A stretch of DNA of 64,000 nt from Patescibacteria group bacterium (GTDB lineage Bacteria; Patescibacteriota; WWE3; UBA101185; UBA10185): NCBI GenBank assembly GCA_049322215.1, contig JBMORU010000001.1, positions 836,023 to 900,022 of the forward strand. The letters run 5' to 3'. How positions within the stretch are numbered: position 1 is the first letter of the stretch; each line of letters opens with the position of its first letter. The translations under genes were made by a program, and so were the position numbers. Below are positions 29 through 18,904 of this stretch, piece by piece. Under the pieces are notes generated by a model. It saw only the letters and a list, made by a program, of their open reading frames with translations. It searched no databases and was not told where the DNA came from.

Positions 29-1243
29 ATGCCCAATCTTAAAACTATTCAAGAAGCTTCGCAAGAGTTAGGAATATCAACAGATACATTAAGAAGATGG
101 GACAAAAAAGGCCTTATAAAATCAAAAAGAAATGAGTTAAATTACAGAGTTTTTGATACCGAAGAAATAGAGCGAATACAAAGTAAATTAAACGGCGATA
201 CTTCAAAAAACCACTTTAAAATATATAAAAATAAAAAAACTTATAACTATAAGGTTGTTGAGTTGTTTGCTGGTGCTGGTGGTACAGCATTAGGGTTTCA
301 TAATGCAGGTTTGCAACATGCATTGTTAATTGAAAATGATAAATTTTGCGTAGCAACATTAAAGAAAAATAAACCCAAGTGGAATATAGACGGTAGAGAC
401 ATAAGAACAGTTGATTATACGGGCATTAAGGCTGATATTGTAGAAGGGGGATTTCCATGCCAATCGTTTAGTTATGCTGGAAAAAGACAAGGTTTTGGAG
501 AAACAAGAGGTACTTTATTTTTTGAATTTGCGCGTGCAGTTGATGCGATTAAACCTAAAATTGCAGTTGCAGAAAATGTAAGGGGTTTAGAAACCCATGA
601 TGAAGGCAGAACATTAAAAACCATGTTACATACTTTAGAAAATCTTGGCTATAAAGTGGCGTATAAAATATTAAAAGCTCAGTATTTTGATGTACCTCAA
701 AAAAGAGAACGTATAATAATTATTGGAGTGCGCAAAAATCTAAATATTCCCATTTTGTTTCCCAAAGAAAAAAATTATATTGTAACTTTGCGAGAAGCAT
801 TGCAAAATGTACCAGAATCTGAAGGTCAAACATATTCAAAAGAAAAAGAAAAAATAATGAATCTAATTCCTCAAGGTGGTTATTGGAAAGACTTACCAGA
901 AGAACTTCAAAAATCTTATATGGGAGCAAGCTATTATCACACAGGAGGTAGAACAGGTATGGCTAGGCGTATGTCCTGGGATGAGCCCTCTCTAACATTA
1001 ACTACAAGTCCATCACAAAAGCAAACCGAAAGATGTCATCCAGAAGAAACTAGACCATTTACAGTCAGAGAATATGCAAGAATACAGACCTTTCCTGACG
1101 ACTGGGTATTTGAAGGGGGAATAACATCAAAATATAAACAAATTGGCAATGCCGTGCCAGTAAACCTAGGCTATCATATTGCAAATGGAATAATTAACAT
1201 GCTTGAGGGAAATATGGATAAAGACAATTTTGTTATTGTGTAG
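29..1243 (+). CDS. DNA (cytosine-5)-methyltransferase with N-terminal MerR/excisionase-like HTH domain
   Basis: Motif I FAGAGG, motif IV PCQSFSYAG, ENV, C-terminal QIGNAVPV; N-terminal 'ISTDTLRRWDKKGLI' HTH. Confidence 0.9.
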   Translation: MPNLKTIQEASQELGISTDTLRRWDKKGLIKSKRNELNYRVFDTEEIERIQSKLNGDTSKNHFKIYKNKKTYNYKVVELFAGAGGTALGFHNAGLQHALLIENDKFCVATLKKNKPKWNIDGRDIRTVDYTGIKADIVEGGFPCQSFSYAGKRQGFGETRGTLFFEFARAVDAIKPKIAVAENVRGLETHDEGRTLKTMLHTLENLGYKVAYKILKAQYFDVPQKRERIIIIGVRKNLNIPILFPKEKNYIVTLREALQNVPESEGQTYSKEKEKIMNLIPQGGYWKDLPEELQKSYMGASYYHTGGRTGMARRMSWDEPSLTLTTSPSQKQTERCHPEETRPFTVREYARIQTFPDDWVFEGGITSKYKQIGNAVPVNLGYHIANGIINMLEGNMDKDNFVIV

Positions 1244-5014: not shown

Positions 5015-6355
5015 ATGAGCGGAGAACAATTTATTCCACCAGAAGCAATTCAAGAATTAATAGAAAAGGATTTGGCAAATGACGATGGTAAAAATACAGT
5101 GCAACGAGCGGGAGAGTACTACCCAAAAGCTACAAAAGATGCGTTTGAAAGAAGGGAATATTTTCTTGAGTATAGAAGCGCCGACTTAGAGAGCTTAATT
5201 GGAAGAGAACTACAATTTCCAATAGAGGCTTCTGAGAGTCAGATAGCAGAAGAATTAGATTTAGCAACACTATTCATTGTTTCTGAACTAACACAAGGCA
5301 AGTGGAAAGACGACTTTTTAAAAGAATACTACGGCGAATACTATACGCAATTAGCCGAAGGAAAAGATTCAAACAAACTAATTAATGACATAATAGAAAA
5401 TGATGGTAGAGAAGTAATTATTCAAGAGCTTACAGGTTTTTTTGTAGAGGGAATAAATAAAGAACTTGAAAAAGCAGAAAAACATCAATACGGCACACTA
5501 ACATCTGGTTTAGAGTTAGAAGTTGTACCAACAGATTTATCGAGTAAAAAAGCGCTAAAAGAGCAGGTAGCTCAAATAGATACATTGCAAGATATAGGTT
5601 ACCCAATAATGCTAGATATGTTAAGAGAAATACCTTTACCAAAATCCCCTTCAGCACACGAACAACTAAAAGCAACCTTAGAACTTATCGAAATGGGAAT
5701 GATAAAACCAAATCAAGAAATTGCCATTCACTTGAATTTTGGAGGTTTTGAGCGTTTTGACCAAGATTTTTTCATGCTGGATCAAATTATACGAACTTCT
5801 AATCTTTTTGGAATTGAAATTAATCCTTGGGATTCAGACGAACCCCCTGAAGAAGCCCGAAAGCCTTTGTATGAAGAAGATGTTTTTTCACCTATGGGTT
5901 TTCCATTTAAAGTAAGAGAAGATGGTGTAATTGAGTTTAGAGGACTCCCCCAAATGATTGACTACAAATCTTATGCTAAAGGCATAAAAACAGTAGAATC
6001 CTTATGCGAATCGCTTGCAGCTTATCAAAGGCAAGACTTAGGTAAAGAAGATAAAACAGGCAAAGATGCCGAGTTAGCCGCTGTTTGGAAAGATTTGCGA
6101 AATAATACAAGGCACAACTTTGGCACGTGGTTTCATTACGGAGAAATTGATTCTTACTATAACTTTGAGGATGCAGAAGAATACTGGAAACATGTTTCAA
6201 GACTAAAAATAAAAGTGGCTACAGTGGGCATGGACAGAGAAACATTACAGGAAAACAAAAGAAGAAGCGAAACTATTCACAACGACGTAGTAGAAGCACG
6301 TATTAAAGCTAGTAAGCTGCTTAAAGATGCCCACAAAAAGGGGGGAATTGATTAG
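5015..6355 (+). CDS. hypothetical cytoplasmic protein (446 aa, acidic)
   Basis: Long uninterrupted ORF, no recognisable motif. Confidence 0.5.
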   Translation: MSGEQFIPPEAIQELIEKDLANDDGKNTVQRAGEYYPKATKDAFERREYFLEYRSADLESLIGRELQFPIEASESQIAEELDLATLFIVSELTQGKWKDDFLKEYYGEYYTQLAEGKDSNKLINDIIENDGREVIIQELTGFFVEGINKELEKAEKHQYGTLTSGLELEVVPTDLSSKKALKEQVAQIDTLQDIGYPIMLDMLREIPLPKSPSAHEQLKATLELIEMGMIKPNQEIAIHLNFGGFERFDQDFFMLDQIIRTSNLFGIEINPWDSDEPPEEARKPLYEEDVFSPMGFPFKVREDGVIEFRGLPQMIDYKSYAKGIKTVESLCESLAAYQRQDLGKEDKTGKDAELAAVWKDLRNNTRHNFGTWFHYGEIDSYYNFEDAEEYWKHVSRLKIKVATVGMDRETLQENKRRSETIHNDVVEARIKASKLLKDAHKKGGID

Positions 6356-6408: not shown

Positions 6409-7155
6409 TTAACAAATAAAGTGCGCAAAAAGACCCCAAACACCTGAGATATTTGGTTCGCACAAACCTCGAGTATAAAAGTAAAAAATTAAGCAATCTT
6501 CTGCTATGTAAATACTCAAAAGTAAAACGAACCCGGCAAATGGAATAATTAACCACCTTATCCAAGACTCTACCGTTGCATACTTTTTTGGCACTTCAGA
6601 AGACTTTATGCGTAAAAGATTTCTGAATACGAGTGTTAGGCCAACAAACATACTCACAAAGTATACGTATACAAGGTTTAGTACCCAGGCATTTATCTTA
6701 AAACTTGGTCCCAGGTTGATGTAGTTAAACCTAAATAGCAGCTCCCAATCGTTAGTCATGGTAGTTAGCCCAATTCCACTAACAAATGCCATAACCGCAA
6801 TGCTGGCTCCCAAAAAAATAGAAGCCAAGCGCCGGTTTTTTTCTTTGTATGCCATTAAAGCAAGAATTGCTAAGGCAAATGGGCTAACTAATACGCCCAA
6901 TACAAAGGTTAAAAAAATGGCAGCGAGAACAATCCATATAAAAGTCCCTCCTAAAGCTTCGCCCCCATCAATTGAAAACCCTGAATTTGGTTTAAACGAT
7001 CCGGTTACTGCATCAACAGCCCCAATTTGGGAACCGCTTGAGTTAAACACATTTCCAACGTGTGAAACCCCGCTGTTAAACCCATCAAAATGCCCATTGG
7101 CTATTTGCCCAATAGGGTTACCCGAGGAATCGAAAACATTAAAACCCTTTGACAT
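6409..7155 (-). CDS. hypothetical membrane protein with Gly/Ser/Asn-rich N-terminal region
   Basis: Several hydrophobic helices; low-complexity N-terminus; preferred over the overlapping plus-strand shadow ORF. Confidence 0.45.
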   Translation of the reverse strand: MSKGFNVFDSSGNPIGQIANGHFDGFNSGVSHVGNVFNSSGSQIGAVDAVTGSFKPNSGFSIDGGEALGGTFIWIVLAAIFLTFVLGVLVSPFALAILALMAYKEKNRRLASIFLGASIAVMAFVSGIGLTTMTNDWELLFRFNYINLGPSFKINAWVLNLVYVYFVSMFVGLTLVFRNLLRIKSSEVPKKYATVESWIRWLIIPFAGFVLLLSIYIAEDCLIFYFYTRGLCEPNISGVWGLFAHFIC

Positions 7156-7254: not shown

Positions 7255-8829
7255 TCAATAAGTTACAGAAGATGCTGCCCTCTGCTTTTTGTTAAGTTCA
7301 ATTCTAACTTTATATCCATACTTATTAAAAAGATAAATAAGTTCCTCACCGTTAATAAGTTTAAGTGGCTTGTCTTTTGCAAATTCAAGAGAATCTTTAC
7401 CATAATAGCTTGTAGTTACTAATATGCCCTTTACAGCACCTTCGTTAAGCATAGTTCCATACAAATCTCTCACAGCACTAACTGGAACCAAATTGTTATA
7501 TCTCTTTGCTTGAATAACGTATTTTCCTCCCCTAATTGGATCTTGATCAAAAGCTATAGCATCAACACCTGCATCACGAGAGGCTCTTGTAACTTCGACC
7601 CTACATGTATCTGTAGAAAACATTTTTTGAACTAAATCTCTTACAAGTACTTCAAATTCTTGCCAGTCCATTATTGCAAGATTTACAGTTTCGTCTAACC
7701 CTTCAATTACACTCGATGCCTGAATAATCCTGTTATCTTCTGTATTCAGTTGCATTATTGGTTTTACTGGTGCCAATTTTGATAAAGACCCAGCAGTTAT
7801 ACCTTTTAAGTGTTTGAAGCAGTCAGTAGGTGCAACATTTATTAAATTTATGTCACCAAATTCTTCACGATTTACCTGTAAGCTTGCTATACAGTTATTG
7901 AATTTATTTCCAGTTTTAGAATCTATTCCTTCTACCCATCCATTTATTACTATTGTTTCAACATGATTATTATAGTCTGATTCGAAAACCTCATGAATTG
8001 TACGTAACAGAATTTGATATATAACTTCATTGTAAAACTGTTCGAATTCTTTAATACCCATTTTGACTTCTTCTATGGAATCTCTAGATCTAATATATTT
8101 AAACTCTTTGATATAAGGAACCTCTTCTGTATAAGGTAATGACATTTCTATAAGAAGCAGTTTAGAGTTTGATTCGTACGAAACTTCAGAAGATAAATTG
8201 AGCGTTTCAGGATACTCCGATCTATCTAGGACAGTTTCTATATAATGAACTACACCATCTCTTTCGCCTTTTTCATAGCTAGCCCTTTTTGCATCTATTT
8301 CTTCGTTAAAAGCCTTTTGTTGTAATTCAAAATCCGCTTTCTCTTTTTCATAAACTTCTTTACGGCGCTCTTCTATTTTTCCCCATTCTTCTTCTGCAAC
8401 GGCAAAACTCTCTTCTGCTTTTATTTCTGCATTTATTCGTTTTTCTTTAAATATGGGTACAAATTCTATAAAGCTTTTTTTAGGAACACCAATAAGAAAT
8501 TCTTCTTTTATTGGCTTTTCAGATGGGGCATAACTTTTGAAGATCTTATTGTTTTTTATACTTTCCCAATCAATTTTGTCATTTCTATCTAGCGTGTATT
8601 TCAAAATTGTTTTGTAAGAGTTAATTTCTTCTTGTGCTAATTTTGTTGAATTCAATGCTTCATTCTGGGATTTTTCTTTGGCTCTTAGGTTCTCATACTT
8701 TATATGCTGTTCTTCCCAAATCCTTTGCCTTTTTCTTACTTTTTCATCAAAGATAAATTTGTCATTAGATTTTATGAGAATGGTTTCTCCAGTGTAATCG
8801 TTAGTTAAATATGTTTGATAAGTTGCCAT
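7255..8829 (-). CDS. Mrr-cat (restriction endonuclease-like) domain protein with ~400-aa N-terminal coiled-coil/unknown region
   Basis: C-terminal 'DAGVDAIAFD...YVIQAKRY...GILVTTSYY' matches the Mrr catalytic-domain pattern (D..D...QxK). Confidence 0.7.
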   Translation of the reverse strand: MATYQTYLTNDYTGETILIKSNDKFIFDEKVRKRQRIWEEQHIKYENLRAKEKSQNEALNSTKLAQEEINSYKTILKYTLDRNDKIDWESIKNNKIFKSYAPSEKPIKEEFLIGVPKKSFIEFVPIFKEKRINAEIKAEESFAVAEEEWGKIEERRKEVYEKEKADFELQQKAFNEEIDAKRASYEKGERDGVVHYIETVLDRSEYPETLNLSSEVSYESNSKLLLIEMSLPYTEEVPYIKEFKYIRSRDSIEEVKMGIKEFEQFYNEVIYQILLRTIHEVFESDYNNHVETIVINGWVEGIDSKTGNKFNNCIASLQVNREEFGDINLINVAPTDCFKHLKGITAGSLSKLAPVKPIMQLNTEDNRIIQASSVIEGLDETVNLAIMDWQEFEVLVRDLVQKMFSTDTCRVEVTRASRDAGVDAIAFDQDPIRGGKYVIQAKRYNNLVPVSAVRDLYGTMLNEGAVKGILVTTSYYGKDSLEFAKDKPLKLINGEELIYLFNKYGYKVRIELNKKQRAASSVTY

Positions 8830-8878
8830 GACAATTTGATTATAGCACTAAGCTCTGTTAGTACATATCAAACTTACC

Positions 8879-9937
8879 TCAAACTAGTTTTCCACCATTT
8901 TGCTCAAAAGCGTCACTCAAACCGCTTCTTATTAATCTCATCAAAATATCAGAAAAGGGAACACCGTGTAATTCCTCAATAATCAACCCCATTGCTGTAT
9001 TTAACTCTTTTGGGCCAAAAGCCGGATTAGCATTAAAGTCAATAAAATAATGTCTTCCAGAACTATCAATGCGCACATCAAATTTTCCGTAACCTTCCAT
9101 TTTTGAAAGCTCAAAAGCCTTTTTTGCTAAATCTTTAAGTTTGTCGTCTTCATACTTTTCGTAAGTATATGCCCAGTTTGACTTGTCAGTGCCTACATCA
9201 AGCCATTGATCTTCAAACGTTGCCATAGCATATTTATTTTCTGCATTTTTAAAAGCTTTTTTTGCCATGTAAATTTTTGTGTTGGCACCTTCAAGGCACA
9301 TAACCGTTATTTCATCTCCAGAAATAAATTCCTCAATAAGCACGGGCTGATTGTATGTAGAAATAAGAAACTTAACTCTTTCTCTAAGGTGTTTTTCATC
9401 TTCAGAAATTGCATCGTAACCAATTTCAACACCACCGTGTATTTCGTTTAGTTTTGAAATAACGGGAAATCTTAGTTCAACATCTAAAGCATTACTTGGA
9501 GTATTAAACAGCTGAAAATTAGGAACAGGAATTCCTGCGTTTCTAAGCAACTTCCGCATTAAAAACTTGTTGTAACACAAAGCTAGTCCTAAAAGACCTG
9601 CACCAACATAGGGCAGATCCATTGTATCTAAAATTCCCGGAATAGTTGAAGAAAGGTACTCATTGCCTTTTATAGAATCTACTAGGTTAAAAACAACATC
9701 GGGTTTGCCTTTTTTTAAATTCTCAATTAGTGAATCATTTCCAGGGTATAACATTACTTTAAAACCAAGTGTTGTGAGTCGCGCAGCTACTAATTCTGCA
9801 TCTTCATGTGCATCTTTTTCTGTAAGGTACTGTTCTTCAGTAGGAAAATATTCTCGCTTAACATCGCTATAAATAATACCTACCTTTTTTACATCTTTTA
9901 AGGAGTCATTGTTTGATATTGTTGCTATTGATTGCAC
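8879..9937 (-). CDS. ATP-grasp ligase, D-alanine--D-alanine ligase-like family (divergent)
   Basis: Central 'PYVGAGLLGLALCYNKFLMRKLL..GIPVP' and C-terminal 'KFDVRID..GRHYFIDFNANPAF' resemble Ddl ATP-grasp motifs. Confidence 0.65.
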   Translation of the reverse strand: MQSIATISNNDSLKDVKKVGIIYSDVKREYFPTEEQYLTEKDAHEDAELVAARLTTLGFKVMLYPGNDSLIENLKKGKPDVVFNLVDSIKGNEYLSSTIPGILDTMDLPYVGAGLLGLALCYNKFLMRKLLRNAGIPVPNFQLFNTPSNALDVELRFPVISKLNEIHGGVEIGYDAISEDEKHLRERVKFLISTYNQPVLIEEFISGDEITVMCLEGANTKIYMAKKAFKNAENKYAMATFEDQWLDVGTDKSNWAYTYEKYEDDKLKDLAKKAFELSKMEGYGKFDVRIDSSGRHYFIDFNANPAFGPKELNTAMGLIIEELHGVPFSDILMRLIRSGLSDAFEQNGGKLV

Positions 9938-11522: not shown

Positions 11523-12461
11523 ATGATGGTAAAAGCTACTAAAGTCGTAACATTTCTATTTCTGCTGGCAGTATTTTCCACTTTTACTTACTTTTCATTT
11601 AGTAAAGTAACTACAAAATTTATTAAAGACTTTAATCGCTCAATGCTTCAAAGCGAAATTGAAACAGTAAAAACGGCGTTCTCACGTAGAACTGAAACAA
11701 TAGCACGCCTAAACGCAGACTGGTCTCAATGGGACGATTCTTATCAATTTGTGCAAGACTTAAACAATTCGTATATAGAAGCAAACTTAGTTGATGAAAC
11801 ATTTCAAAGTGCAAACCTTAATATGATTTTATTTTTTGATCGCAACGGCAACATAGTTTATAAAAAGGCTAGAAGCTTAGGCGGAATAGGCGATACATCA
11901 ATACCAGCAGAAGTTTTTAATTACACCACCAACAATAATAGAATCAACATTCAAGAAATAATTAGCTCTGGAAAACAGCAAACAGGGTTTTTAAGTACAA
12001 CTCAAGGAACATTTATTTTTGCTGTAAGTCCAATTATAACAAGTGAAGGAGAAGGTCCCGCAATGGGTGCTTTAATGATGGCGCGCTATTTTAACAACAC
12101 TGACCTGGAAGAACTAAAACAATACACGGGATTCAATTTAGATTTTGTAGAACACACTAGTTTAGGAAATTGGCAGCACCCGGAAGTAACATATAAAGAT
12201 ATAGAAAAAAGAGATTTTGTAGTTGAAAAAAATGATGTTTTCTCAGTATATACACTAACTAAAGATTCCTGGGGTAATGACGCAAAAGTAATAAACTTGC
12301 AGCATAAAATTGTAGGGCTTAACTATGTAAAAAAGCTAACATTAACTTTAACGGCAATTTCAGGCATAGTAACAGGATTGTTTGGATTAACTGTGCTGTC
12401 TGCACGTTCTACTAAAGATTTATACGAAATGGAAGAGAAAGTTATTAAAAACGTAATTTAA
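11523..12461 (+). CDS. membrane-anchored extracytoplasmic sensor-like protein (CHASE4-like), no output domain
   Basis: N- and C-terminal TM helices flanking a ~250-aa domain with DWSQWDDSYQF and NMILFFDRNGN motifs reminiscent of CHASE4. Confidence 0.35.
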   Translation: MMVKATKVVTFLFLLAVFSTFTYFSFSKVTTKFIKDFNRSMLQSEIETVKTAFSRRTETIARLNADWSQWDDSYQFVQDLNNSYIEANLVDETFQSANLNMILFFDRNGNIVYKKARSLGGIGDTSIPAEVFNYTTNNNRINIQEIISSGKQQTGFLSTTQGTFIFAVSPIITSEGEGPAMGALMMARYFNNTDLEELKQYTGFNLDFVEHTSLGNWQHPEVTYKDIEKRDFVVEKNDVFSVYTLTKDSWGNDAKVINLQHKIVGLNYVKKLTLTLTAISGIVTGLFGLTVLSARSTKDLYEMEEKVIKNVI

Positions 12462-17154: not shown

Positions 17155-18306
17155 TTAATACCTTAGTGTGGCAGCAATACCGCTAGAAATAGCTAATTGT
17201 TCTTCGGTTACTTTATAAACCTCTCCACCATTTTTTAAAGTTAAAACTATTGCAATGTTCATTAAATCAGTGGATTCTCTTCTTTTTCGTTTATCAATCA
17301 CTGCTGCGCTTGTTGACTCGTTAAACAAGCCCCATGTGTCATTAAAATTATTAATAAATAAAGTATCTACACGACCAAAAGCGGCTGATTTCAAAATATC
17401 GGTTAAAACTGTAAGTGAGTCACCAGTATTATTTTTGTATTTATCTATAGCAAGTTCTTCCTTTGAAACATATTCTTTTTCTACTAGCTGACGAGTTTTG
17501 CCTAAAAATTTCATTCTATCGCTTTTTGTATCAGGATTTCCATTTACATGTGCTTCAACCAAATGTGGATAATTATTAACTTTTTTATACTTTGCAAAAA
17601 TAGTGTCTGTGCAAATTAACACCAAAGGTAAATCATAGTTAGATATAATTTTGTTTACGTGGTTATCCAAGCGTTCTAAATAGCGTTGAAGTAAAGCATC
17701 GGTGCCATCTTTTATAGAACCATGCCCGTGAAACACTACACCACCCGTTGCACCACTTGATACAGCAATAGGTTTTGTAGCATGAAATTGTATTGATTTA
17801 TCAATATCAACTTCTGCAGGTAAAATTTCGGATCTAGAAATTAAGTCATAGCTACTATCAGCTACTGCATACAAAAAGTTCTTTTTTGGACTAACTGCCA
17901 AAACATAATACTGCGTGCTTTCACTTAAATAAGGTACTAAATGTTTAATGTTGAAATAAACCCCTAAATAAAACTTAGATGGAGTACTTTGTGGCAAAGC
18001 TACCGCTAGTTGCGTACTTTCTGAAATAATAAATAGCATGCTAGACGATGTTGTTTTCCAAAAATCTTCGGCAGAACTTAATTCTTCAATAGGGGATAAG
18101 TATTCAGTAATTTCAGGATTACGAAGTCCACGTGCGTATAATTTAGCACGTACTTCAGTCAAAAGATTTTTTAAGCGTATTCTAGCCTTGTCGTTACTTT
18201 CCCAGCGTCTATGCGTGTTTAAATAAACGGTTATAGCAGGAAATTTTTGTCTCTCTATCATTTCAGCTAAGTATTTTTTTAATTCATATGTTTTTATGAC
18301 TTTCAT
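17155..18306 (-). CDS. bacterial Pelota/eRF1-like (baeRF-type) protein
   Basis: C-terminal 'GRVDTLFINNFND...KNGGEV...EEQLAISSGIAATLRY' matches the eRF1/Pelota domain-3 hallmark (ETLLIS...GGIAAILRY); GGQ-like loop replaced. Confidence 0.55.
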   Translation of the reverse strand: MKVIKTYELKKYLAEMIERQKFPAITVYLNTHRRWESNDKARIRLKNLLTEVRAKLYARGLRNPEITEYLSPIEELSSAEDFWKTTSSSMLFIISESTQLAVALPQSTPSKFYLGVYFNIKHLVPYLSESTQYYVLAVSPKKNFLYAVADSSYDLISRSEILPAEVDIDKSIQFHATKPIAVSSGATGGVVFHGHGSIKDGTDALLQRYLERLDNHVNKIISNYDLPLVLICTDTIFAKYKKVNNYPHLVEAHVNGNPDTKSDRMKFLGKTRQLVEKEYVSKEELAIDKYKNNTGDSLTVLTDILKSAAFGRVDTLFINNFNDTWGLFNESTSAAVIDKRKRRESTDLMNIAIVLTLKNGGEVYKVTEEQLAISSGIAATLRY

Positions 18307-18904
18307 TTTCTATATTAGAAGATACATCAGTCAGTTCTAGGTCTGCCTCCCAAAGAATTCTAGAAACTTTTGTATTACCACTTTTAAGTAATGCTAAAAA
18401 TATGTGTTCTGGCTGTAGCATTGTGTTTCCCATATCTCTAGCCTCACTTAACGAGTTATTAAGTACAAATTCCACCTCCTCCGATAAATTTACAGAGTTG
18501 TTTTTGGAAAAAACATTAAATCCTACACCTTTTTCAGCGTGCTTAGGAATAATTGAGTGCAATAGTTTTAAGTTTGACCTATATATAGGAACTAGCTTTT
18601 CAACTACTGCTTCATGGCTGATTAAAGCTTGTAGCAAGTGTGTCACTCCAAGTGCGTTTGCATTATAAGAAAGAGTTATTGATCCAGCATTTTTTAAAAC
18701 ATCTTTCGATTCACTACTTAAATATCTTGATATATCTATATTAGGTACAGAATCAACTAAATCTGCTTCGTAGTTTAAATCGCGGCTAAATACAGTGTAT
18801 TCTCTAACAGTATCGTTAGATAATAAAGAAGCAAGTGATGTACCTTTTGAATTTTTAAATATACTTCTATTCATACGGTAATAATAACGAAGCAAAAAAT
18901 GCAT
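18284..18904 (-). CDS. Clp N-terminal-domain repeat protein (stand-alone, no AAA+ module)
   Basis: Two Clp_N-like repeats: 'ALGVTHLLQALI' and 'EARDMGNTMLQPEHIFLALLKSG'. Confidence 0.55.
   Translation of the reverse strand: MHFLLRYYYRMNRSIFKNSKGTSLASLLSNDTVREYTVFSRDLNYEADLVDSVPNIDISRYLSSESKDVLKNAGSITLSYNANALGVTHLLQALISHEAVVEKLVPIYRSNLKLLHSIIPKHAEKGVGFNVFSKNNSVNLSEEVEFVLNNSLSEARDMGNTMLQPEHIFLALLKSGNTKVSRILWEADLELTDVSSNIENESHKNI

What the first reader, a model, noticed from the sequence alone, without database searches (positions are those of the whole stretch)
7255..9937. Mrr-type nuclease with large unknown N-terminal region, co-oriented with a divergent D-Ala-D-Ala-ligase-like ATP-grasp enzyme
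The 524-aa protein has a clear C-terminal Mrr catalytic-domain signature (DAGVDAIAFD ... YVIQAKRY). Its ~400-aa N-terminal part is coiled-coil-rich and has no recognisable motif. It lies 50 bp downstream of, and on the same strand as, an ATP-grasp ligase that resembles Ddl only loosely. A Mrr nuclease fused to an unknown sensor-like region is a typical architecture of single-gene anti-phage or modification-dependent restriction systems. Pairing with a peptide-ligase-type ATP-grasp enzyme is unusual.
Basis: partly seen in the sequence, partly recalled or inferred. Interest (0 to 1): 0.55.

Follow-up and report, generated by a model that had tools for sequence, protein, structure and literature searches.

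The report
Solo Mrr-type nuclease; ATP-grasp neighbour coincidental
This is an ordinary stand-alone defence-type DNA nuclease from a widespread, already catalogued family, and it sits next to an unrelated, lineage-conserved ligase gene by chance, so the two are not a new two-gene system.

Summary
Both ORFs exist exactly as described, in a Patescibacteria genome. They are a 524-aa protein (7255..8829, -) with an intact C-terminal Mrr_cat nuclease, and a 352-aa Ddl-like ATP-grasp protein (8879..9937, -) 49 bp upstream.

The interpretation only partly holds.
- **The nuclease is catalogued.** The whole protein, including most of its "unknown" N-terminal region, matches the PADLOC model mREase_IV PDLC03663 (E 2e-67). 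It has thousands of full-length homologues across bacterial phyla, archaea and plasmids.
- **The pairing is not conserved.** Profile HMM searches found no ATP-grasp gene in any of 80 Mrr-family loci. They found no Mrr gene in any of 55 ATP-grasp-family loci outside the same species.
- **The ATP-grasp gene is vertically inherited.** Its relatives are all Patescibacteria (54-81% identity) and its neighbourhood differs in every genome examined.

One feature remains open. The N-terminal module is a helical hairpin plus a consistently acidic α/β domain. It has no Pfam model and no significant match among solved structures. It also occurs fused to TerB/SngA-like, DEDDh exonuclease and HIRAN domains, and on its own. 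The "methyl-directed" label is therefore an untested database inference.

Verdict: a new member of a known kind, of low interest.

The parts
7255..8829 (-). Gene for a 524-aa stand-alone Mrr-family nuclease (PADLOC mREase_IV PDLC03663 family)
   Evidence: ORF. It is 100% identical to a deposited protein named 'restriction endonuclease' from a Patescibacteria MAG. PADLOC PDLC03663 matches at E 2e-67 over aa 105-504.
7330..7671 (-). Mrr_cat PD-(D/E)xK nuclease domain (aa 387-500), with catalytic D422 and Q439-x-K441
   Evidence: Pfam PF04471, E 8e-29. D418, D422, D427, Q439 and K441 are invariant in 114 homologues. The motif aligns with 'RDGGRDGIG...EAKCY' of AspBHI, PDB 4oc8.
7795..8274 (-). 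Conserved acidic α/β domain (aa 186-345; four strands, a long helix, two strands, then helices) of unknown function
   Evidence: AF2 domain model, pLDDT 88.5, pTM 0.82. No PDB match below E 1e-3 and best TM-score 0.26. No Pfam hit. Net charge is -13 here; the family mean is -6.1 and 96% of members are negative.
8275..8829 (-). N-terminal β-hairpin (aa 3-20) and long antiparallel helical hairpin (aa 23-72 and 124-185)
   Evidence: AF2 full-length model with pLDDT above 90 over this region.
8839..8847 (-). TGcTATAAT, an extended -10-like sequence 9 nt upstream of the Mrr ATG, in the 49-bp spacer. It may be the nuclease gene's own promoter, giving a near-leaderless mRNA.
   Evidence: Read directly from the sequence. 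The consensus scan did not list it because the -35 spacing is off. It is a consensus match only, not evidence of function.
8879..9937 (-). Adjacent, functionally unlinked gene: a 352-aa Ddl-superfamily ATP-grasp ligase of a Patescibacteria-specific family
   Evidence: Pfam Dala_Dala_lig_C, E 5e-16. The best NCBIfam Ddl model scores 110 bits against a cutoff of 243. There are 1089 homologues, and every listed hit that carries a taxon name is Patescibacteria, WWE3, Woesebacteria or Roizmanbacteria; aligned members are 54-81% identical. hhalign against E. coli DdlB gives 26% identity over DdlB 28-303.
6409..7155 (-). Downstream co-oriented 248-aa membrane protein, followed by a terminator-like hairpin at 6396-6360. 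Possibly co-transcribed, but not conserved alongside the nuclease.
   Evidence: ORF. Terminator-like site. No relative in any of 80 Mrr-family loci.

Best explanation
ORF 7255..8829 encodes a stand-alone, horizontally mobile nuclease that works on its own as a restriction or defence enzyme.

**Shown.** The C-terminal Mrr_cat PD-(D/E)xK domain has a complete catalytic motif, D422 ... Q439-x-K441. The N-terminal module is a β-hairpin, a long helical hairpin and an acidic α/β domain, and it is conserved across the whole family.

**Inferred.** The nuclease domain cleaves DNA. The N-terminal module provides the control element, either target or trigger recognition or oligomerisation. The helical hairpin probably brings two nuclease domains together so that both strands can be cut.

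Databases label the family 'Type IV methyl-directed'. That label is itself an inference from the Mrr_cat domain and has not been tested for this family here.

The upstream ATP-grasp gene is not part of this. It is a vertically inherited housekeeping-type ligase of the Ddl superfamily, specific to Patescibacteria. The nuclease gene came to lie next to it in this one species.
For: **Family membership**
- Pfam Mrr_cat scores 100.5 bits.
- PADLOC mREase_IV PDLC03663 matches at E 2e-67 over aa 105-504.
- The catalytic residues are invariant in 114 homologues and align with the AspBHI active-site motif.
- Foldseek on the full model returns MspJI and AspBHI as top hits.

**Mobility**
- At least 3904 homologues were found; the 120 best are 43-59% identical and most are full length.
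- In the genome scan 582 candidate stretches encode relatives. They span Patescibacteria, Bacillota, Planctomycetota, Bacteroidota, Chloroflexota, Methanosarcina and Bathyarchaeia.
- Ten plasmid records carry near-full-length copies.
- The gene has no conserved neighbour. The largest neighbour cluster occurs in 7 of 80 loci, and integrases occur in 6 of 80.

**Independence from the ATP-grasp gene**
- Neither tblastn nor profile HMMs found co-occurrence in either direction, across 0.90 Mb and 0.53 Mb of flanking sequence.
- The nearest ATP-grasp relatives from other species (82% and 72% identity) have different genes downstream. DNA similarity to the window ends at the 3' end of the ATP-grasp gene.
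- An extended -10-like sequence lies in the spacer.
Against: - No member of this exact family was found with experimental data, so both DNA cleavage and modification dependence are inferred.
- Mrr_cat alone does not dictate modification dependence. The review PMC3874153 cites LlaGI as a counter-example.
- The α/β domain is acidic in 96% of close members. This is unusual for a DNA-reading domain and fits poorly with the simple model of an N-terminal reader for modified bases.
- AF2 confidence is lower in the nuclease domain and the linker (pLDDT 42-75 over aa 361-440).
- There is no terminator-like site between the ATP-grasp, Mrr and membrane-protein genes, so co-transcription in this species cannot be excluded.
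Confidence: 0.8

Rival explanations
1. The nuclease is not a modified-DNA (Type IV) restriction enzyme. Its N-terminal module senses something other than DNA, such as a phage protein, a membrane or stress signal, or a small molecule. It then releases the nuclease, in the manner of an abortive-infection system.
For: - The α/β domain is acidic across the family: mean -6.1 with 96% of members negative, and mean -5.1 in 145 distant representatives.
- The domain has no SRA, winged-helix or other DNA-reader match in the PDB.
- The same module is fused to TerB_N/TerB/TerB_C proteins that match Shango SngA, to a DEDDh exonuclease and to HIRAN. It also occurs without any effector in 40 of 145 representatives.
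- It matches a phage family of unknown function, phrog_38135.
- PMC3874153 warns that Mrr_cat does not imply methyl-dependence.
Against: - HIRAN and the DEDDh exonuclease are both nucleic-acid-related partners, so a nucleic-acid function remains plausible.
- Net charge is only a crude indicator of DNA binding.
- The short C-terminal tail is basic in 99% of members and could supply DNA contacts.
- There is no direct evidence for any trigger.
Confidence: 0.3
2. The ATP-grasp enzyme and the Mrr nuclease form a functional two-gene system. The ligase might, for example, make or modify a peptide or nucleotide signal that controls the nuclease.
For: The genes share a strand with a 49-bp spacer and no terminator-like site between them. 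The pair is conserved in a contig of the same species.
Against: - No co-occurrence in 80 Mrr-family loci or in 55 ATP-grasp-family loci, by profile HMM. tblastn over all 80 Mrr loci and 51 of the ATP-grasp loci was also empty.
- The ATP-grasp family is present at 54-81% identity in Patescibacteria that have no Mrr gene within 5-8 kb.
- Its recurrent partners are a second ATP-grasp paralogue and a lysine-2,3-aminomutase-like enzyme, not a nuclease.
- No PADLOC model hits the ATP-grasp protein.
Confidence: 0.03
3. The ATP-grasp gene is simply this lineage's functional D-Ala-D-Ala ligase, highly diverged.
For: - The best matches in every library are Ddl.
- The ATP-grasp core and the Mg2+ ligands are kept: DdlB D257, E270 and N272 correspond to invariant D286, D299 and N301.
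- JGI annotators name relatives 'D-alanine-D-alanine ligase'.
- It is the only Ddl-like gene in the 64-kb window.
Against: - Scores fall far below every NCBIfam Ddl cutoff (110 against 243), and NCBI names relatives 'hypothetical protein'.
- The N-terminal Ddl segment that carries the D-Ala1 ligand (E15 of DdlB) does not align.
- DdlB R255 is replaced by an invariant Lys, and the Ser-rich loop 'EGSS' by 'HGGVE'.
- The gene is never next to mur genes in five annotated contexts.
- A subset of relatives sit in an operon with a paralogue and a lysine-2,3-aminomutase-like enzyme, which points to a different substrate.
Confidence: 0.3
4. The nuclease domain is catalytically dead and acts only as a binding or regulatory domain, as the Pfam NA-iREase1 hit might suggest.
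For: There is a secondary Pfam hit to NA-iREase1, the 'NACHT-associated inactive restriction endonuclease' (E 4e-9).
Against: Mrr_cat scores far higher (100.5 against 37 bits). The D...QxK catalytic residues are invariant in 114 sequences and align with those of the active enzyme AspBHI.
Confidence: 0.05

Closest known systems
PADLOC-DB model PDLC03663, 'mREase_IV' (named by PADLOC a Type IV methyl-directed restriction enzyme)
   Same: The match runs almost full length: aa 105-504 against profile positions 124-526 of 544, E 2e-67. It covers the α/β domain, the linker and Mrr_cat. The length is similar (505-530 aa) and the gene occurs singly.
   Different: Nothing architectural. The family label is itself a prediction. 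I found no experimental characterisation, and the window protein is at most 59% identical to any other member except the copy in the same species.
E. coli K-12 Mrr (EcoKMrr)
   Same: It has a C-terminal Mrr_cat domain with the (D/E)..(D/E/Q)xK motif in the 'QxK' variant, and it is a single-polypeptide, NTP-independent architecture.
   Different: EcoKMrr has a short N-terminal winged-helix domain, Mrr-N (PMC3874153). Here the N-terminus is a roughly 380-aa helical hairpin plus an acidic α/β domain with no Pfam match.
MspJI / AspBHI family (Type IIM/IV; SRA-like N-terminus plus Mrr_cat)
   Same: These are the best structural hits for the full-length model (E 4e-7) and the only PDB sequence hit (AspBHI). 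The nuclease domain is C-terminal in both.
   Different: The similarity is confined to the nuclease domain. The domain-only model returns no MspJI, AspBHI or SRA hit at all. The full-model alignments have an rmsd of 16-20 Å and TM-scores of about 0.2.
Shango SngA-like TerB proteins
   Same: Some SngA-like proteins (P0272, P0293, P0298, P0360) carry the same N-terminal module found in the window protein.
   Different: The effector part differs: TerB_N, TerB and TerB_C in place of Mrr_cat. The window has no TerB protein, and no SngB or SngC partners were looked for.
D-alanine--D-alanine ligase (E. coli DdlB, PDB 2DLN/1IOV), for the neighbouring gene
   Same: It has the ATP-grasp fold and 26% identity over DdlB residues 28-303. 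The Mg2+/ATP ligands are kept.
   Different: It falls below all curated Ddl cutoffs. The N-terminal substrate-binding motif is not alignable and DdlB R255 is replaced by Lys. There are no mur neighbours.

Membership tests
Mrr_cat nuclease superfamily (Pfam PF04471) | Domain score above the Pfam gathering threshold | tested here: met
   100.5 bits against a cutoff of 21, aa 387-500.
Mrr_cat nuclease superfamily (Pfam PF04471) | Catalytic motif (D/E)...(D/E/Q)xK intact | tested here: met
   D422 and Q439-A-K441 are invariant in 114 homologues. They align with the AspBHI motif. The motif definition is from PMC3874153.
PADLOC mREase_IV PDLC03663 | Near-full-length profile match that includes the non-catalytic region | tested here: met
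   E 2e-67, aa 105-504 against profile positions 124-526 of 544.
Type IV (modification-dependent) restriction enzymes | Cleaves only modified DNA | not testable with these tools
   This is a biochemical property. Mrr_cat similarity alone does not dictate it (PMC3874153, LlaGI example).
EcoKMrr-type Mrr | N-terminal Mrr-N winged-helix DNA-binding domain | tested here: not met
   No Pfam hit on aa 1-372 at E<=5. AF2 shows a helical hairpin plus an α/β domain instead.
MspJI family | N-terminal SRA-like base-flipping domain | tested here: not met
   The domain-only model (pLDDT 88.5) has no SRA, MspJI or AspBHI hit. The best PDB hit is E 1.9e-3 with TM 0.26 to an unrelated lipoprotein.
Two-gene defence system (ATP-grasp plus Mrr) | Conserved co-occurrence of the two genes across genomes | tested here: not met
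   No co-occurrence in 80 Mrr-family loci or in 55 ATP-grasp-family loci (HMM; tblastn; denominators). The pair is found only in a contig of the same species.
Canonical D-Ala-D-Ala ligase (neighbouring gene) | Score above the curated NCBIfam Ddl cutoffs | tested here: not met
   Best score 109.9 bits against a cutoff of 243 (NF002378). All 41 Ddl and Van models fall below their cutoffs.
Canonical D-Ala-D-Ala ligase (neighbouring gene) | Ddl substrate-binding residues (DdlB E15 region, R255, S150 loop) | tested here: inconclusive
   The N-terminal region does not align. R255 is replaced by an invariant K284, and 'EGSS' by 'HGGVE'. The Mg2+ ligands are kept. The omega-loop alignment is ambiguous between phmmer and hhalign. 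The DdlB sequence and residue roles were taken from memory.
Canonical D-Ala-D-Ala ligase (neighbouring gene) | Genomic association with mur/dcw genes, and being the only ddl in the genome | tested here: inconclusive
   No mur genes lie nearby in the window or in five annotated relatives. The rest of the 1.11-Mb genome could not be searched.

The most novel reading that the evidence does not exclude
The roughly 350-aa N-terminal module is a helical hairpin plus a consistently acidic α/β domain with no Pfam family and no solved structural relative. It could be an undescribed, widely distributed sensor or regulatory module of conflict systems. It has 2329 representative clusters and is exchanged between Mrr nucleases, SngA-like TerB proteins, DEDDh exonucleases and HIRAN proteins. 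On this reading the whole 'mREase_IV PDLC03663' family is mislabelled: it would respond to a cue other than DNA methylation.
Probability: 0.3. Interest if true: 0.5.

Novelty: new member of a known kind. Interest (0 to 1): 0.18.

Why it matters
As stated, the finding would have pointed to a new two-gene defence system that couples a peptide-ligase-type enzyme to a nuclease. The data show this is not the case, so the locus does not need follow-up on those grounds.

What remains useful is modest.
1. Patescibacteria, despite their tiny genomes, carry a stand-alone nuclease of a family that is also found in many other phyla, in archaea and on plasmids.
2. The abundant PDLC03663 family owes its 'methyl-directed' label only to its nuclease domain. 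Its large conserved N-terminal module has no known fold or function and is shared with TerB, exonuclease and HIRAN proteins. Characterising one member would give a function to thousands of genes.

Tried and rejected
- **Two-gene system.** Tested by tblastn and by profile HMMs in both directions. Rejected.
- **Any other conserved partner of the nuclease.** All neighbour ORFs within ±4 kb in 80 loci were clustered. Nothing recurs in more than 7 loci. The downstream membrane protein and the 446-aa ORF have no relative in any of the 80.
- **SRA-like or MspJI-like N-terminus.** The full-model Foldseek hits to MspJI and AspBHI suggested it. A separate domain-only model gave no such hit, so the similarity comes from the nuclease domain alone.
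- **Sequence and profile searches of the N-terminal region.** Searches against PDB sequences returned only spurious coiled-coil hits (RIB43A, ClpC). A Pfam scan at E<=5 returned nothing. A BFVD fold search returned only uncharacterised phage proteins.
- **Signs of a discrete insertion.** No flanking repeats, no tRNA nearby and no GC anomaly were found. Synteny with the nearest other species is lost on both sides, so insertion boundaries cannot be defined.
- **Context of a stand-alone N-module protein (P0262).** The contig is too short to be informative.
- **Canonical ddl or mur cluster in the window.** None was found in the regions scanned.
- **Phage records.** They hold only weak hits restricted to Mrr_cat.
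- **Literature.** Searches found no paper on this family or on its N-terminal module.
Full report
**Observation**

The window is low in GC (about 33%).

The 524-aa protein is 100% identical to a deposited protein named 'restriction endonuclease' from a Patescibacteria MAG, on a 1.11-Mb contig.

Pfam places Mrr_cat at aa 387-500 (E 8e-29), with a weaker overlapping NA-iREase1 hit. The quoted motifs are present. D418, D422, D427, Q439 and K441 are invariant in 114 homologues. They align with the active-site motif of the solved enzyme AspBHI. This fits the (D/E)..(D/E/Q)xK definition of Mrr_cat given in PMC3874153. The nuclease therefore looks catalytically competent.

**The N-terminal region**

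No Pfam, NCBIfam or PDB-sequence match exists for aa 1-372. Defence catalogues do recognise it, however. PADLOC model PDLC03663 ('mREase_IV') matches aa 105-504 at E 2e-67.

An AlphaFold2 model built on 114 homologues (mean pLDDT 86.8; above 90 over aa 1-350) shows these parts:
- a β-hairpin (aa 3-20);
- a long antiparallel helical hairpin (aa 23-72 and 124-185);
- an α/β domain (about aa 205-345);
- a low-confidence linker;
- the nuclease domain.

Foldseek on the full model returns MspJI and AspBHI at E of about 4e-7, but with TM-scores of about 0.2 and an rmsd of 16-20 Å. A separate model of aa 186-372 (pLDDT 88.5, pTM 0.82) finds no PDB structure below E 1e-3 and no SRA or MspJI hit. BFVD returns only uncharacterised phage proteins. 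The resemblance to MspJI is therefore confined to the nuclease domain.

The α/β domain is acidic. Its net charge is -13 here, the mean over 114 close homologues is -6.1, and 96% of them are negative. The mean over 145 distant representatives is -5.1. The short C-terminal tail is basic in 99% of close homologues.

**Distribution of the nuclease family**

At least 3904 homologues were found. The best 120 are 43-59% identical and most are full length. In species-representative genomes, 582 candidate stretches encode relatives. The best 80 span Patescibacteria, Bacillota, Planctomycetota, Bacteroidota, Chloroflexota, Actinomycetota, Proteobacteria, Methanosarcina and Bathyarchaeia. Ten plasmid records carry near-full-length copies. 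Phage records carry only weak Mrr_cat hits.

Clustering all neighbour ORFs within ±4 kb in the 80 loci shows no conserved partner. The largest clusters are a methyltransferase-like protein in 7 of 80 loci and integrases in 6 of 80. This is the pattern of a solitary, horizontally mobile gene.

**The N-terminal module elsewhere**

A phmmer search with aa 1-372 against 1.84 billion representative proteins gives 2329 hits at E<=1e-3. The top 145 divide as follows:
- 99 carry Mrr_cat;
- 40 end just after the module;
- 4 carry TerB, TerB_C and in one case TerB_N, and the two of these scanned against PADLOC match Shango SngA;
- 1 has an N-terminal DEDDh (RNase_T) exonuclease;
- 1 has an N-terminal HIRAN domain.

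The module also matches phrog_38135, a phage family of unknown function. It is therefore a reusable unit of conflict-system proteins. Its function is not known.

**The ATP-grasp gene**

It matches Pfam Dala_Dala_lig_C (E 5e-16). Its best NCBIfam Ddl model scores 110 bits against a cutoff of 243, and all Ddl and Van models fall below their cutoffs. The best solved relatives are Ddl enzymes at E 1e-15.

A profile of its family aligns to E. coli DdlB over residues 28-303 at 26% identity (the DdlB sequence was supplied from memory). The Mg2+ ligands are kept. DdlB R255 becomes an invariant Lys, the 'EGSS' loop is replaced, and the N-terminal segment that holds the D-Ala1 ligand does not align.

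The family has 1089 detected members. Every listed hit that carries a taxon name is Patescibacteria, WWE3, Woesebacteria or Roizmanbacteria, and the aligned members are 54-81% identical to the window protein. NCBI names them 'hypothetical protein'. This is vertical, lineage-specific conservation.

**Test of the pairing**

- *Mrr-family loci.* tblastn with the ATP-grasp protein and six other window neighbours found nothing in 80 loci. A profile HMM of the ATP-grasp family against six-frame translations of these loci (0.90 Mb) also found nothing at E<=1. Sixty-nine loci have at least 1.2 kb of upstream sequence.
- *ATP-grasp-family loci.* The Mrr-family HMM found nothing in 55 loci from other species (0.53 Mb). 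tblastn over 51 of them was also empty. tblastn placed the ATP-grasp gene in 53 of the 55, and 37 of those have at least 1.6 kb downstream.
- *Nearest relatives.* ATP-grasp genes from other species at 82% and 72% identity are followed by DUF1295 and Slr1353_N genes on the opposite strand. DNA similarity to the window stops at the 3' end of the ATP-grasp gene. Three more complete or large genomes each show a different context and no mur genes.
- *Same species.* The pair recurs only in a contig about 98% identical in DNA.
- *Own promoter.* The 49-bp spacer contains TGcTATAAT 9 nt before the Mrr ATG. This suggests the nuclease gene has its own promoter, although no terminator-like site separates the genes.

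The adjacency is best explained by chance placement of a mobile gene.

**Mechanism**

- *Shown:* an intact Mrr_cat catalytic motif; a conserved multi-part N-terminal module; solitary, mobile genomic behaviour.
- *Inferred:* DNA cleavage by the C-terminal domain. The N-terminal module would provide control and possibly dimerisation through the helical hairpin.
- *Unresolved:* whether the trigger is modified DNA, as the database label implies, or something else. The acidic α/β domain, the absence of any known DNA-reader fold and the fusions to TerB-type proteins keep a non-methyl-sensing model alive (about 0.3). PMC3874153 notes explicitly that Mrr-type nuclease motifs do not dictate modification dependence.

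**Comparison, novelty and verdict**

The protein is a member of the catalogued PDLC03663 family. It is not an EcoKMrr-type protein, because it has no Mrr-N winged helix. It is not an MspJI-type protein, because it has no SRA-like domain.

The ATP-grasp protein belongs to the Ddl superfamily but fails the curated Ddl thresholds. Whether it is this lineage's working Ddl could not be settled, because only 64 kb of the genome is available. In that stretch it is the only Ddl-like gene.

The finding is a new member of a known kind. The feature that made it look unusual, the pairing, is not real. Interest is low (0.18). The residual value lies in the uncharacterised N-terminal module.

Noticed in passing
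L115:5070-6164 (+), L127:1939-3195 (+), and other loci among L082-L132: In 12 of 51 loci with relatives of the window's ATP-grasp gene, a second Ddl-like ATP-grasp paralogue (26% identical to the window protein) lies immediately downstream on the same strand. A lysine-2,3-aminomutase-like radical SAM enzyme (LAM_C plus Radical_SAM) recurs nearby in 9 of 51. This may be a Patescibacteria operon for ligating a β-amino acid or peptide. None of it is present in the window.
   Followed up: partly
Proteins P0272, P0293, P0298, P0360, P0369, P0351 (from the representative search): The N-terminal module of the Mrr protein is also fused to SngA-like TerB proteins (TerB_N, TerB, TerB_C), to a DEDDh RNase_T exonuclease and to a HIRAN domain. 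It also exists as stand-alone proteins of 360-450 aa. The module has no Pfam family and no solved structural relative.
   Followed up: partly
window 29-1243 (+), and L081:20323-21575 (just outside the left edge of the window): A C5 cytosine DNA methyltransferase is fused to an N-terminal MerR-type HTH. Just beyond the window edge, after HD and NUDIX genes, lies a 913-aa ResIII/DEAD/RE_endonuc protein. A restriction-modification-like cluster therefore sits about 6 kb from the Mrr gene. The resident m5C methylation must be compatible with the Mrr nuclease.
   Followed up: no
window 17155-18306 (-) and 18284-18904 (-): A 383-aa protein matching several baeRF (bacterial/archaeal eRF1-like) families lies directly downstream of a Clp_N-domain protein and overlaps it slightly.
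   Followed up: no
window 5015-6355 (+): A 446-aa ORF has no hit in Pfam, NCBIfam, PADLOC or PHROGs. In the contig of the same species (L134) the corresponding region is called as two shorter genes of 247 and 96 aa, so it may be decaying or variable between strains.
   Followed up: partly
window 11523-12461 (+): A 312-aa protein consists of a CHASE4 extracellular sensor domain (E 5e-37) with no recognisable output domain.
   Followed up: no
window 8830-8847 (-): The Mrr gene has no Shine-Dalgarno-like sequence. A TGcTATAAT element ends only 9 nt before the ATG, which implies a leaderless or near-leaderless transcript if the element is used.
   Followed up: no
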